Assembly (NCBI RefSeq): GCF_036507355.1
Contig: NZ_AP027877.1
Reading direction: 5' to 3' (one strand)
From: Escherichia coli
GTDB lineage: Bacteria > Pseudomonadota > Gammaproteobacteria > Enterobacterales > Enterobacteriaceae
Length of the DNA: 64,000 bases
The stretch's first letter is position 1. Each line of letters begins with the position of its first letter. Shown piece by piece: positions 37,401 to 40,400 of this stretch. The position numbers are program-made.

Positions 37401-40400
37401 CTGACTGTTCTTTATTAGCGGAAGAATCCGGACCGTACTTCTTTATCCAGGCGTAAAGGCTGTGGGTGGTGATATCGAGACGTGTTGCAACGCTGGCAAC
37501 AGAATAACCGCGATCAACAACCTGTTTGACTGCTTCAATTTTAAACTCTTCGGGATAACGCTTACCGCTCATGGGCACCTCTCTTTAAGCCATCTTAAAT
37601 GACTCTGAGGTGTCTGTTAAACCCGTGGCGATTCAGGAAGAGTTCGAAATACGCAGCGAAATTGTTGGAATTCAAATTAGTTGATCTTGACGTTCTTAAG
37701 CGAACATACTTCTTTTTTGCAGACCGTTATCTGGCAGATGTAGTGAAGTTTGAAAACCTATGTGGTGATTTAGAGCATACATCGCAGAAGGCTAGGGATG
37801 AAAAAATTAAGGCCATGCAATTAAAGACAAACGACCCTGAAATTCAGTTAGGTGTTTGTATTTTTGTTTGTTTCAGGTTGCGAAACAACCTTTTTCATGG
37901 ACCAAAATGGCGTTATTTGCTTGATGGGCAAGAGGATTTGCTCTTAATTGCCGGAAATTTTATACATTCTATTCTATTACAGGTGCCTAGTAGAGATGGC
38001 TGGGAATTCAAGAATATTTTAACTTCTACTGATTAGCTTTGATTTTCCATAATCAACCCGCCATAATCATGTCATCGGAGCCTGAACAACTCCGGTGACT
38101 TCTGCGCTTTGAGGGGACTCAAAGTGCAAACGACAATCAGAACACCTTTCAACCAGTCACAGATGCAGAAATGCACCTGCAATATCTTGCATCCAACGTT
38201 TGACCTCTGCGGAGGTGAAGCGTGAACCTCCCACAAGACGGCATCAAATTACATCGCGGTAACTTCACTGCTATCGGTCAGCAGATCCAGCCTTATCTGG
38301 AGGAAGGCAAATGCTTTCGCATGGTGCTTAAACCGTGGCGGGAGAGACGCAGTCTTTCCCAGAATGCACTCAGCCACATGTGGTACAGCGAAATCAGTGA
38401 ATACCTCATCAGCAGGGGTAAAACGTTCGCCACTCCAGATTGGGTAAAAGATGCTCTCAAACACACTTATCTCGGTTATGAAACCAAAGAACTGGTTGAT
38501 GTCGTAACCGGTGAGATCACCACTATCCAGTCGTTACGCCATACCTCCGATCTTGATACCGGAGAGATGTATATCTTCCTGTGTAAGGTTGAAGCCTGGG
38601 CGGTGAATATTGACTGCCACCTGACTATTCCGCAGAGCTGCGAGTTCCAGCTGCTGCGCGACAAGCAGGAGGCGTAATGGCTACACCGCTTATTCGTGTC
38701 ATGAACGGACACATCTACAAAGTACCAAATCGTCGTAAGCGTAACCCTGAGCTGAAGCCATCCGAAATACCAACTCTGCTCGGATATACCGCCAGCCTGG
38801 TTGATAAAAAATGGTTGCGACTGGCAGCAAGGAGGAATCATGGCTGATTTGAGAAAAGCAGCGCGTGGTCGGGAATGCCAGGTAAGAATCCCTGGCGTAT
38901 GTAATAGCAATTCTGAAACGTCTGTACTGGCACATATCCGGCTGGCTGGATTGTGCGGTACCGGTATCAAACCGCCAGACCTGATTGCCACCATCGCATG
39001 TTCTGCCTATCACGACGAAATCGACCGCCGCACACATTTTGTCGATGCTGAGTATGCAAAAGAATGCGCGCTGGAAGGTATGGCGAGAACACAGGTTATC
39101 TGGCTGAAAGAGGGGGTTATTAAGGCGTGAATACTTACAGCATCACATTACCCTGGCCTCCGAGCAATAATCGCTATTACCGCCATAATCGCGGGCGCAC
39201 GCACATCAGCGCAGAGGGGCAGGCATACCGCGATAACGTCGCCCGAATCATTAAAAACGCAATGCTGGATATCGGCCTGGCTATTCCTGTGAAAATCCGC
39301 ATTGAGTGTCACATGCCGGATCGCCGTCGCCGTGACCTGGATAATCTGCAAAAAGCTGCTTTTGACGCACTTACCAAAGCAGGTTTCTGGCTGGATGATG
39401 CTCAGGTCGTTGATTACCGCGTTGTGAAGATGCCGGTTGTCAAAGGTGGAAAGCTGGAACTGACCATCACTGAACTGGGAGATGAATGATGTTTGAGTTT
39501 TATACGGCAGAACTTCTTCGCCACCGCTGGATGCGCCTGCGCTTATATCGTTTCCCCGGTTCTGTTTTGACCGATTACCGAATACTGAGGAATTACGCCA
39601 AAACCCTGACAGGAGCAGGAGTATGAAGTCAGAGATAACAATCAACTAATACTGTTTTGTTGATTTTTGCTTGTAATTGGCGTTCTGGTCTGATTTTTGT
39701 GGAGTAAGTTGATGCGTGATATTCAGATGGTTCTTGAGCGTTGGGGAGCGTGGGCGGCTAATAATCATGAAGATGTGACCTGGTCGTCCATTGCCGCCGG
39801 TTTTAAGGGATTAATTCCTTCAAAAGTAAAATCTCGCCCACAATGTTGTGACGATGACGCGATGATCATTTGCGGGTGCATGGCCCGTCTGAAAAAGAAC
39901 AACAGCGATTTGCATGATTTATTGGTGGACTATTATGTCGGCGGCATGACTTTTATGGCGCTTGCACGTAAGCATGGGCGATCTGATTGTTGGGTTGGCA
40001 GGATGCTCCAGAAAGCTGAGGGCGTAGTGGAGGGTATGCTGATGGTGTTGGATCTCCGATTGGAGATGGATGCTGATTGTTCGAAATAATTAAAGGAAAA
40101 GTTGCTGTCTGATTGTCATTAGTCTAACATTTTAAATGTTGGAATCGCAACGTAGTTATTATCATATAACAGCTTGTTTCCTGATTTAGCCAGCCTCCCC
40201 AAAGGCTGGTTTTTTTCTAATAAGTATTATTTCGGGTAGGGATTTTATTGTTTAACCCATAATAATTCATTGACATTGAATCCCAACTTTTGAGCGGTTC
40301 GCACATAGTCTGCTTTTACTTTATCTGGAATAGTTGGGGTCCTTGCCAGAATCCATAGGTATTCTCTGTTCGGACCACTGACAAGAGCATACTTATACTC

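What the first reader, a model, noticed from the sequence alone, without database searches (positions are those of the whole stretch)
38677..39626. Chain of start/stop overlaps in the nin region with two unannotated mini-genes
ninB, ninE, a ybcO-like gene, rusA and ylcG are linked by TAATG or ATGA overlaps, which suggests translational coupling. The ninE (56 codons) and ylcG (46 codons) frames fall below the ORF-track cutoff but have family-like sequences.
Basis: partly seen in the sequence, partly recalled or inferred. Interest (0 to 1): 0.2.

Follow-up and report, generated by a model that had tools for sequence, protein, structure and literature searches.

The report
Overlapping genes in prophage nin region
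A run of small back-to-back genes in a defective lambda-like prophage of E. coli overlap at their stop and start codons exactly as in the well-studied K-12 DLP12 prophage; this is a real but ordinary and long-described feature, and both "mini-genes" (ninE, ylcG) are already named families.

Summary
Window 38222-39626 carries ybcN, ninE, ybcO, rusA and ylcG on the + strand. Each start codon overlaps the previous stop: TAATG (1 nt), ATGGCTGA (8 nt), GTGA (4 nt), ATGA (4 nt). Two of the four are therefore not literally "TAATG or ATGA". The "ninB" is ybcN, a distant NinB/Orf-family member.

The same chain with the same overlaps is annotated in E. coli K-12 MG1655 (DLP12 prophage). It is kept in 60 of 60 non-identical related loci. 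It is also kept in Klebsiella and Enterobacter phages of only 65-75% DNA identity, even where ybcO+rusA is replaced by ninG.

ninE and ylcG pass NCBIfam cut-offs and evolve under purifying selection in the proposed frames. Every downstream start has a strong Shine-Dalgarno sequence.

Translational coupling by termination-reinitiation is the most likely mechanism, but it is inferred, not shown.

A chain of interlinked nin genes was described for lambda in 1982, and -1/-4/-8 spacings are the three canonical overlap types. Verdict: already known, low interest.

Side notes: a fifth overlap upstream (ylcH-like ORF, with a hairpin over the ybcN ribosome site), a Cys-to-Tyr change in ybcO, and a vestigial 8-codon ORF after ylcG.

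The parts
38124..38225 (+). ylcH-like small ORF (33 codons from GTG). Its TGA stop overlaps the ybcN GTG start (GTGA). It may be a leader ORF or a pseudogene remnant.
   Evidence: The C-terminal 21 residues match K-12 YlcH. PGAP marks the equivalent in strain EFF60 as partial. There is no clear purifying selection (omega 0.56-1.6).
38196..38223 (+). Predicted mRNA hairpin that pairs the ybcN Shine-Dalgarno (GGAGG 38211-38215) and the first two bases of the GTG start.
   Evidence: the 70-nt window around the junction folds at -21.6 kcal/mol, z = -2.5, with 3 of 200 shuffles as stable; the hairpin on its own is -17.1 kcal/mol over 40 nt; 96.5% of cells are paired in 18 variants, but covariation is not above shuffles (83-127 of 500).
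38222..38677 (+). ybcN (151 aa, GTG start), a distant NinB/Orf-family protein and the first long gene of the chain.
   Evidence: NCBIfam PRK09741 273.5 bits. PHROG 72 NinB/Orf 175 bits. Annotated as ybcN in K-12 and EFF60.
38675..38679 (+). Junction ybcN/ninE: TAATG, 1 nt shared. AGGAGG lies upstream of the ATG.
   Evidence: SD:anti-SD duplex -10.3 kcal/mol, top 0.8% of 2267 ATG/GTG sites in the window.
38677..38847 (+). ninE (56 aa), function unknown, net charge about +9.
   Evidence: NCBIfam NF007245 137.9 bits against a cut-off of 88. 95% identical to K-12 NinE and homologous to lambda NinE. pN/pS 0.34-0.39 in frame against 1.4-2.1 out of frame.
38840..38847 (+). Junction ninE/ybcO: ATGGCTGA, 8 nt shared. 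AGGAGG lies upstream of the ATG.
   Evidence: SD duplex -11.4 kcal/mol, top 0.1%. The same 8-nt geometry (ATGCGTAA) is seen where ninG follows ninE.
38840..39130 (+). ybcO (96 aa), a DUF1364 / His-Me-finger putative nuclease. It carries Cys57-to-Tyr (TAT 39008-39010).
   Evidence: Pfam PF07102 135 bits. PDB 3g27 E 1e-57. Fold class from PMC5714182.
39127..39130 (+). Junction ybcO/rusA: GTGA, 4 nt shared.
   Evidence: SD duplex -11.8 kcal/mol with 8-nt spacing.
39127..39489 (+). rusA (120 aa, GTG start), Holliday-junction resolvase. Asp70, Asp72 and Asp91 are present.
   Evidence: NCBIfam NF007305 275.5 bits against 200. Pfam RusA 78.5 bits. Sequence read.
39486..39489 (+). Junction rusA/ylcG: ATGA, 4 nt shared.
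   Evidence: SD duplex -7.3 kcal/mol, top 3.9%. ATGA is present in 65 of 67 unique loci.
39486..39626 (+). ylcG (46 aa), function unknown, predicted two-helix hairpin.
   Evidence: NCBIfam NF033498 78.4 bits against 30. 89 cluster representatives with E<=1e-3 among 1.84 billion proteins. AlphaFold2 pLDDT 85. pN/pS 0.37-0.56 in frame against 0.8-1.4 out of frame.
39623..39649 (+). 8-codon ORF (MKSEITIN) that starts on the ATGA at the ylcG stop. It is probably a vestige of an ancestral ylcG/Q overlap.
   Evidence: In RCIP0098, CobraSix and Chronis the Q gene starts on this ATGA.
39712..40089 (+). Q-family antiterminator (quuD-like), 85 nt downstream of ylcG. It marks the end of the nin block.
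   Evidence: Pfam PF06530 173 bits. The -85 spacing is seen in 69 unique loci.
38879..38894 (+). Exact copy of the HusR (YnfL) box reported inside K-12 ybcO, upstream of rusA.
   Evidence: Box sequence taken from Table 1 of PMC12844172.
39230..39245 (-). Exact copy of the second HusR box listed for the same binding peak; in this window it lies within rusA.

Best explanation
This is the ybcN-ninE-ybcO-rusA-ylcG block of a DLP12 / phage-82-type nin region. It lies in a defective lambdoid prophage of E. coli, next to evgAS-emrKY.

In an intact phage the block is part of the delayed-early rightward transcript that runs from the replication genes to Q. No terminator-like site and no above-chance excess of promoter-like sites lies inside it, so it reads as one polycistronic unit.

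Each downstream start sits at one of the three canonical spacings relative to the upstream stop: -1, -8, -4, -4. Each is preceded by its own strong Shine-Dalgarno sequence embedded in the end of the upstream gene.

Most likely mechanism (inferred): a ribosome that terminates on the upstream cistron stays on the mRNA, is held by the nearby Shine-Dalgarno sequence, and re-initiates a few bases away. The recombination and repair proteins (the NinB/Orf-like YbcN, the His-Me nuclease YbcO and the RusA resolvase) and the two small basic proteins (NinE, YlcG) would then be made in linked amounts from one message.

At the head of the chain, translation of the ylcH-like ORF may in addition open a hairpin that masks the ybcN ribosome site.

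In this defective prophage the normal promoter region is gone, and an IS3-family element and a truncated BstA-like gene lie upstream. The block is therefore probably mostly silent, as reported for K-12 rusA. A possible exception is HusR-dependent rusA-ylcG expression in stationary phase.

Shown here: gene identities, overlap geometry, its conservation, Shine-Dalgarno strength, and purifying selection on both mini-genes. Inferred: coupling itself, co-transcription, and expression state.
For: - Geometry was read from the sequence.
- K-12 MG1655 annotates an identical chain, ylcH-ybcN-ninE-ybcO-rusA-ylcG, with overlaps 4, 1, 8, 4, 4. So do strain EFF60 and phage 4A7.
- 2307 of 5426 complete E. 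coli genomes hold at least 80% of the 2-kb block.
- The geometry is kept in Klebsiella phage RCIP0098 (71% nt identity). It is also kept in CobraSix and Chronis, where ninG replaces ybcO+rusA.
- The junction strings are the same in nearly all non-identical loci (60/60, 60/60, 57/57 with one ATGA for GTGA, 65/67).
- SD:anti-SD energies are -7.3 to -11.8 kcal/mol, in the top 0.1-4% of window ATG/GTG sites.
- No terminator-like site lies inside the chain, and the count of promoter-like sites in the scanned region is not above shuffles (7 found against 5.1 +/- 2.7).
- -4, -1 and -8 are the three enriched spacings in prokaryotes (PMC12548453).
- 13 of 14 tested overlapping pairs were strictly coupled (PMC6728339).
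- The lambda nin region shows the same chained layout. It was described as 'a chain of interlinked genes' by Kroger & Hobom 1982, cited in PMC7166090.
- Selection tests are.
- Quiescence of K-12 rusA: PMC1636454. HusR activation of rusA-ylcG: PMC12844172. Both HusR boxes are exact in the window.
Against: - No expression or ribosome data could be reached for this locus. Hemm 2008 and the lambda ribosome-profiling paper are not held.
- The ribosome sites of ninE, ybcO and rusA are strong and not significantly structured (z -0.7, +0.3, +0.6). De novo initiation could therefore suffice and coupling may add little.
- Most of the 78 related loci are close relatives. The independent evidence rests mainly on three divergent phages.
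- The hairpin at ybcN lacks significant covariation.
- The upstream promoter context in this prophage is destroyed, so the chain may not be translated at all in this strain.
Confidence: 0.85

Rival explanations
1. The overlaps are a by-product of genome compaction and of how easily NTGA arises. Each cistron initiates independently at its own strong Shine-Dalgarno site, so there is no functionally important coupling.
For: - SD sites are strong at every start.
- There is no significant local structure at the ninE, ybcO and rusA starts.
Against: - The geometry is conserved at saturated synonymous divergence and across a swap of the downstream gene, ninG for ybcO.
- 13 of 14 tested overlapping pairs were strictly coupled.
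- A terminating ribosome physically occupies a start site that is 1-8 nt away.
Confidence: 0.3
2. The conserved junction sequences persist mainly as short homologous 'linkers' at which lambdoid phages exchange gene modules, not for translation.
For: - The ninE 3' end with the embedded ATG is kept whether ybcO or ninG follows.
- The ATGA at the ylcG start is kept whether rusA or ninG precedes it.
- The ATGA at the ylcG stop is kept although Q is replaced, leaving an 8-codon ORF.
- A mosaic joint lies inside ylcH.
Against: - The shared strings at the swapped junctions are only a few bases, too short for homologous recombination.
- The Shine-Dalgarno motif and the exact spacing are what is conserved.
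- This explanation is compatible with coupling rather than exclusive of it.
Confidence: 0.15
3. ninE and/or ylcG are chance ORFs and not genes. The apparent chain is really ybcN ... ybcO-rusA with non-coding spacers.
For: - Both are below 60 codons, and chance ORFs of this size are common in the window.
- Pfam scores NinE below its cut-off and has no YlcG model.
Against: - NCBIfam scores are far above the cut-offs.
- Exact lengths of 171 and 141 nt are kept in divergent phages.
- Substitutions are in excess at the third codon position, and pN/pS is 0.34-0.56 only in the annotated frame.
- The ninE product is homologous to lambda NinE.
- The YlcG family has 89 cluster representatives, typically 42-49 aa.
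Confidence: 0.02
4. Coupling works by unmasking of RNA structure rather than by re-initiation: the upstream ribosome melts a hairpin that hides the next ribosome site.
For: The ylcH/ybcN junction folds into a hairpin that covers the SD and the start (z -2.5; -17.1 kcal/mol). The rusA/ylcG junction is mildly structured (z -1.8).
Against: The three central junctions show no structure beyond shuffles. Hairpin covariation is not significant.
Confidence: 0.2

Closest known systems
DLP12 cryptic prophage nin block of E. coli K-12 MG1655 (ylcH-ybcN-ninE-ybcO-rusA-ylcG-quuD, b4588 to b0551)
   Same: - Same genes in the same order.
- Same gene lengths (456, 171, 291, 363, 141 nt).
- Same overlaps (4, 1, 8, 4, 4) and the same 85-nt gap before Q.
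- The three-way DNA alignment with K-12 and strain EFF60 has 98% mean column identity.

   Different: - It sits at a different chromosomal site (next to emrY, not at the DLP12 site).
- The upstream neighbour is an IS3-truncated BstA-like gene instead of ybcL/ybcM.
- The 5' half of ylcH is diverged.
- YbcO carries C57Y.
- Downstream of Q are lipocalin and YbgA-family genes instead of nmpC.

ninR region of bacteriophage lambda ('a chain of interlinked genes', Kroger & Hobom 1982)
   Same: - It is a block between the replication genes and Q made of short genes whose stops and starts overlap: 4, 4, 34, 4, 11, 4, 23, 4 nt in lambda.
- It contains a NinE homologue.
- It contains a recombination mediator (NinB/Orf) and a junction nuclease.
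   Different: - Gene content differs. Lambda has ninC, D, F, G, H and I and no ybcO, rusA or ylcG.
- YbcN is only remotely related to NinB.
- The junction resolvase is RusA here and NinG/Rap in lambda.
Functional lambdoid phages with the same block (Escherichia phage 4A7, Turner, PhiR26_1; Klebsiella phage RCIP0098)
   Same: The full ybcN-ninE-ybcO-rusA-ylcG chain with identical overlap geometry, in viable phages.
   Different: - In RCIP0098, CobraSix and Chronis ylcG also overlaps Q by ATGA.
- In CobraSix and Chronis ninG replaces ybcO+rusA.
Classical translationally coupled pairs (e.g. trpB-trpA, atp operon, phage f1 genes VII/IX)
   Same: Co-directional cistrons at -1 or -4 spacing with an SD inside the upstream gene. 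At the head of the chain there is also an RBS-masking hairpin, as in f1 VII/IX (PMC12548453).
   Different: Coupling was demonstrated experimentally for those pairs. It is only inferred here.

Membership tests
NinE family (NCBIfam NF007245 / Pfam PF05322) | Profile score above the curated cut-off | tested here: met
   NCBIfam 137.9 bits against a cut-off of 88, full length 1-56. The Pfam model scores only 21 against 25, below its cut-off. PHROG 288 gives 117.7 bits.
NinE family (NCBIfam NF007245 / Pfam PF05322) | Detectable homology to lambda NinE | tested here: met
   BLASTP 44% identity over 41 residues, E 7e-7. 19 columns are invariant in the 4-way alignment.
NinE family (NCBIfam NF007245 / Pfam PF05322) | Protein-coding constraint in the proposed frame | tested here: met
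   pN/pS 0.34-0.39 in frame against 1.4-2.1 in shifted frames. Differences by codon position are 13/11/32 against CobraSix.
YlcG family (NCBIfam NF033498) | Profile score above the curated cut-off | tested here: met
   78.4 bits against a cut-off of 30. 91% identical to K-12 YlcG.
YlcG family (NCBIfam NF033498) | Small size (about 46 aa) and a position as the last cistron between a junction resolvase and Q | tested here: met
   141 nt in all relatives. It follows rusA or ninG and precedes Q. Family members are typically 42-49 aa.
YlcG family (NCBIfam NF033498) | Protein actually made | not testable with these tools
   Only second-hand evidence: PMC12844172 cites Hemm et al. 2008 among the sources for stationary-phase induction of ylcG. 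The primary paper is not held.
NinB/Orf recombination mediator family (Pfam PF05772) | Profile score above Pfam's gathering cut-off | tested here: not met
   21.1 bits against 23.8. BLASTP against lambda NinB is not significant, E 0.97.
NinB/Orf recombination mediator family (Pfam PF05772) | Remote-homology grouping with NinB/Orf | tested here: met
   PHROG 72 'NinB/Orf homologous recombination mediator', 175.1 bits, residues 1-150.
NinB/Orf recombination mediator family (Pfam PF05772) | NinB fold | not tested
   No solved relative was found by sequence. No structure prediction was made for YbcN.
YbcO / DUF1364 His-Me-finger nucleases (Pfam PF07102) | Profile score above the cut-off and similarity to the solved YbcO structure | tested here: met
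   135 bits against 29.9. PDB 3g27 E 1.2e-57.
YbcO / DUF1364 His-Me-finger nucleases (Pfam PF07102) | Conserved Cys in the C-S-x-C-H motif | tested here: not met
   The window has CSAYH. Cys is present in K-12/3g27, EFF60, 4A7, RCIP0098 and ENT1. Whether this Cys binds metal and whether activity is lost is inference.
RusA Holliday-junction resolvase (Pfam PF05866 / NCBIfam NF007305) | Profile scores above the cut-offs and presence of Asp70 (the residue changed in the inactive D70N variant) | tested here: met
   275.5 bits against 200 and 78.5 against 22.8. D70, D72 and D91 were read from the translation. D70N is inactive according to PMC1636454 (abstract listed).
Translationally coupled gene pairs | Co-directional cistrons with stop/start spacing of -1, -4 or -8 and an SD inside the upstream gene | tested here: met
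   Definition of the enriched spacings in PMC12548453.
Translationally coupled gene pairs | Downstream translation depends on upstream translation | not testable with these tools
   This needs reporter or ribosome-profiling experiments.
Lambdoid nin region | Located between the replication genes (O/P/ren) and Q on the rightward transcript | tested here: inconclusive
   Q lies directly downstream. In this window the upstream side is an IS3 element plus a BstA-like fragment. In strain EFF60 the same block follows P and ren.

The most novel reading that the evidence does not exclude
YlcG is a conserved 46-residue two-helix protein. It is always the last cistron before the Q antiterminator gene, and in Klebsiella and Enterobacter phages it overlaps Q by ATGA.

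It, or simply its translation, might act as a coupling device that sets the dose and timing of Q, and hence the switch to late gene expression.

Together with the ylcH-gated hairpin at ybcN, this would make the whole nin chain a translational timer rather than a mere gene string.
Probability: 0.08. Interest if true: 0.45.

Novelty: already known. Interest (0 to 1): 0.08.

Why it matters
It matters little beyond correct annotation.

- The finding shows that a 60-codon ORF cut-off hides two real, conserved phage genes, ninE and ylcG.
- It shows that stop/start overlaps are a reliable cue for spotting them.
- The chain is a clean natural example of all three canonical overlap spacings (-1, -4, -8) in one operon.
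- The layout is kept across module swaps, so it would make a convenient test bed for translational-coupling experiments.
- The functions of NinE and YlcG remain unknown. That is the only open question here.

Tried and rejected
- **Pfam alone:** it under-calls this block (NinB and NinE below cut-off, no YlcG model). NCBIfam and PHROGs resolved it.
- **Promoter/terminator scan of 37500-40400:** promoter-like sites are at chance level (7 against 5.1 +/- 2.7), and no terminator lies inside the chain.
- **Rfam on the whole window:** only a tRNA at 55783-55854.
- **RNA folding of the junctions:** only the ylcH/ybcN junction stands out. Its covariation test on 18 variants is not above shuffles, so the hairpin stays a hypothesis.
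- **AlphaFold2 of YlcG:** a confident two-helix hairpin (pLDDT 85), but Foldseek against the PDB found nothing.
- **AlphaFold2 of NinE:** with 6 sequences the confidence is low (pLDDT 67.5, pTM 0.28), so it was not used.
- **Expression evidence:** Hemm et al. 2008 and the lambda ribosome-profiling paper are not held. The small-protein ribosome-profiling preprint does not mention ylcG, ylcH or ninE, and no supplements are held for another paper.
- **Long antisense ORFs** (38476-38994, 38699-39037, 39148-39645 on the - strand): treated as shadow ORFs, because antisense open stretches vary freely in length among relatives.
- **Programmed frameshift at the A6 run in ninE:** considered and rejected. 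The 150-aa NinE-YbcO fusion proteins in databases correspond to a 1-nt shorter A run in the DNA.
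Full report
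**1. What is in the sequence**

The + strand of window 38222-39626 carries five consecutive ORFs:
- ybcN 38222-38677 (GTG start, 151 aa)
- ninE 38677-38847 (56 aa)
- ybcO 38840-39130 (96 aa)
- rusA 39127-39489 (GTG start, 120 aa)
- ylcG 39486-39626 (46 aa)

The finding's coordinates run exactly from the ninE start to the ylcG stop. The four junctions are:
- TAATG, 1 nt shared
- ATGGCTGA, 8 nt shared
- GTGA, 4 nt shared
- ATGA, 4 nt shared, with a second in-frame ATG three bases later

So the chain is real.

Two further overlaps lie at the ends. A ylcH-like ORF (38124-38225) stops in GTGA on the ybcN start. The ATGA at the ylcG stop opens only an 8-codon ORF (39623-39649). The Q-family antiterminator gene starts 85 nt further on (39712-40089).

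**2. Identity of the genes**

| Gene | Evidence |
|---|---|
| ybcO | Pfam YbcO 135 bits |
| rusA | Pfam RusA 78.5 bits; NCBIfam 275.5 against a cut-off of 200 |
| Q | Pfam Phage_antitermQ 173 bits |
| ninE | Pfam NinE 21 against 25, below cut-off; NCBIfam NinE family 137.9 against 88 |
| ylcG | No Pfam model; NCBIfam YlcG family 78.4 against 30 |
| ybcN | Pfam NinB 21.1 against 23.8, below cut-off; NCBIfam PRK09741 273.5 against 164 |

- The window NinE is 95% identical to K-12 NinE. It aligns with lambda NinE at 44% identity over 41 residues, E 7e-7.
- The window YlcG is 91% identical to K-12 YlcG.

The 'ninB' is more precisely ybcN. PHROGs places it in family 72, NinB/Orf recombination mediator (175 bits). 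BLASTP against lambda NinB is not significant.

The exact five window proteins are all present in public E. coli records, including one 4.64-Mb chromosome. In that submission's accession series YlcG has no accession, whereas RefSeq does list it. This illustrates how easily such a gene is missed.

**3. It is the DLP12-type nin block**

- MG1655 annotates ylcH-ybcN-ninE-ybcO-rusA-ylcG-quuD with overlaps 4, 1, 8, 4, 4 and the same 85-nt gap. The three-way DNA alignment with K-12 and strain EFF60 has 98% mean column identity, and every junction string is unchanged.
- 4173 of 5426 complete E. coli genomes hold a match, and 2307 hold at least 80% of the 2-kb block.
- The window's copy lies in a defective lambdoid prophage next to evgS-evgA-emrK-emrY.
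- An IS3-family element (about 36403-37640, - strand) has cut a BstA-C-terminal-domain gene just upstream.
- Downstream of Q come a terminator-like hairpin, a lipocalin gene, a YbgA-family gene and the lysis genes.

**4. Is the overlap chain more than chance?**

*Base rate.* About 15% of prokaryotic gene pairs are co-directional overlaps (PMC6728339). Four in a row would be about 5e-4 under independence. That is a naive bound, because overlaps cluster in operons.

*Conservation.* This is the stronger argument.
- Among 78 non-identical related loci, the junctions are 1 nt (60/60), 8 nt ATGGCTGA (60/60), 4 nt (57/57; GTGA in 56, ATGA in 1) and 4 nt ATGA (65/67). These loci come from viral contigs, phages and genomes (and earlier). 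They are mostly close relatives.
- Klebsiella phage RCIP0098 has 71% DNA identity and keeps 1, 8, 4, 4. Its ylcG additionally overlaps Q by ATGA.
- In Enterobacter phage CobraSix and Klebsiella phage Chronis, ybcO+rusA is replaced by an unrelated ninG. Even so, ninE still overlaps the next gene by 8 nt (ATGCGTAA), ninG overlaps ylcG by ATGA, and ylcG overlaps Q by ATGA.
- Synonymous sites between these phages and the window are near saturation (pS 0.56-0.86). The retained geometry is therefore not just recent common ancestry.

**5. Are the mini-genes real?**

- Lengths are invariant at 171 and 141 nt.
- Substitutions concentrate at third codon positions. For ninE the counts are 13/11/32 against CobraSix.
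- pN/pS is 0.34-0.39 for ninE and 0.37-0.56 for ylcG in the annotated frame. It is 0.8-2.1 in the two shifted frames.
- A profile search of 1.84 billion representatives finds 89 YlcG-family clusters with E<=1e-3, typically 42-49 residues long. They share a conserved RW..LR..R..G(S/T).L.DYRIL.N core.
- AlphaFold2 predicts a two-helix hairpin for YlcG (pLDDT 85). It has no PDB neighbour.
- NinE is predicted with low confidence, apart from a C-terminal helix.
- Both proteins are strongly basic. Their functions remain unknown.
- The ylcH-like ORF shows no clear coding constraint (omega 0.56-1.6).

**6. Mechanism**

- Each downstream start has a strong Shine-Dalgarno sequence inside the upstream gene. 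The SD:anti-SD energies are -10.8 kcal/mol for ybcN, -10.3 for ninE, -11.4 for ybcO, -11.8 for rusA and -7.3 for ylcG. These fall in the top 0.1-4% of 2267 ATG/GTG sites in the window.
- No terminator-like site lies inside the chain, and promoter-like sites in the scanned region are not above the shuffled count. This is consistent with one transcript.
- The spacings -4 (NTGA), -1 (TAATG/TGATG) and -8 (NTGNNTGA) are exactly the three enriched overlap motifs in prokaryotes (PMC12548453).
- 13 of 14 overlapping pairs tested experimentally were strictly coupled (PMC6728339).

I therefore consider termination-reinitiation coupling the most likely way the chain works. This is inference. The ninE, ybcO and rusA ribosome sites are unstructured (z -0.7, +0.3, +0.6) and could also initiate on their own.

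Only the ylcH/ybcN junction shows a notable hairpin (38196-38223). It pairs the SD and the GTG start (z -2.5, 3 of 200 shuffles; -17.1 kcal/mol). It is 96.5% paired across 18 sequence variants, but without significant covariation. It is a plausible unmasking gate but remains unproven.

**7. Expression state**

- In K-12, rusA is normally quiescent and is switched on by IS2 or IS10 insertions upstream (PMC1636454).
- A 2026 study reports that HusR (YnfL) binds upstream of rusA (peak between ybcO and rusA) and activates rusA-ylcG in stationary phase (PMC12844172).
- Both published HusR boxes are exact in the window, at 38879-38894 (+) and 39230-39245 (-).
- In the window the phage early promoter region is absent.
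- Any translation of the chain in this strain is therefore uncertain.

**8. Comparison with what is known, and verdict**

- The lambda nin region shows the same chained layout, with overlaps of 4, 4, 34, 4, 11, 4, 23 and 4 nt.
- The identical chain is annotated in K-12.
- YbcO is a known His-Me-finger fold with a solved structure, 3g27.

Nothing here departs from known systems. The finding is correct, ordinary and already known.

The only loose ends are small:
- the unknown roles of NinE and YlcG
- the possible ylcH gate
- a Cys57-to-Tyr allele of YbcO
- the 8-codon vestige after ylcG, which probably marks a past exchange of the Q module

Noticed in passing
window 38124-38225 and 38196-38223: A ylcH-like 33-codon ORF ends in GTGA on the ybcN start, a fifth link of the chain outside the finding. 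A hairpin (-17 kcal/mol, z -2.5) pairs the ybcN Shine-Dalgarno sequence and start codon. Covariation in 18 variants is not significant.
   Followed up: partly
window 39623-39649: An 8-codon ORF (MKSEITIN) starts on the ATGA at the ylcG stop. In Klebsiella and Enterobacter phages the Q gene itself starts on that ATGA. This looks like a relic left when a different Q module was recombined in.
   Followed up: partly
window 39008-39010 (ybcO codon 57): TAT (Tyr) replaces the Cys of the CSACH motif. Cys is present in K-12 (PDB 3g27), EFF60, 4A7, RCIP0098 and ENT1. The exact Tyr allele occurs on 9 public contigs, so it is a real lineage allele that may disable the nuclease.
   Followed up: partly
window 38806-38811 (A6 run in ninE); proteins P0036 and P0057: Public E. 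coli records contain 150-aa NinE-YbcO fusions that correspond to a one-base-shorter A run. They also contain a 212-aa YbcO-RusA fusion in O55:H7. The overlapping junctions are easily converted into gene fusions.
   Followed up: partly
window about 36403-37640 (- strand) and 37641-38036: An IS3-family element (orfA 37294-37578, orfB 36425-37237) interrupts a gene for a BstA-C-terminal-domain protein. Only its C-terminal part remains, directly upstream of the nin block. BstA is recalled from memory as a prophage anti-phage defence protein; no tool call here tested that. ORF 37599-38036 is a hybrid of the IS end and the gene remnant.
   Followed up: partly
window 38879-38894 (+) and 39230-39245 (-): Both HusR (YnfL) binding boxes reported in 2026 for K-12 upstream of rusA are exactly conserved. 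The host-factor control of rusA-ylcG described for DLP12 could therefore apply to this prophage as well.
   Followed up: yes
window 40188-40211, 40245-40769 (-), 40962-41921 (+): A strong terminator-like hairpin lies just after Q, a likely Q-antitermination target. It is followed by lipocalin-family and YbgA-family genes inserted between Q and the lysis genes. They look like cargo (moron-like) genes, in the place where K-12 DLP12 has nmpC.
   Followed up: no
window 38160-38180: The stretch CAGATGCAGAAATGCACCTGC inside ylcH is conserved across E. coli and Enterobacter phages, although the 5' half of ylcH is mosaic and the ORF shows no coding constraint. In most relatives it is followed by a T-run (GATTTTTTG) that this window lacks. 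Its role is unknown.
   Followed up: no
window 38476-38994, 38699-39037, 39148-39645 (- strand): Long antisense ORFs (172, 112 and 165 aa) run opposite the nin genes. Antisense open stretches vary freely in length among relatives, so they look like shadow ORFs rather than genes.
   Followed up: partly
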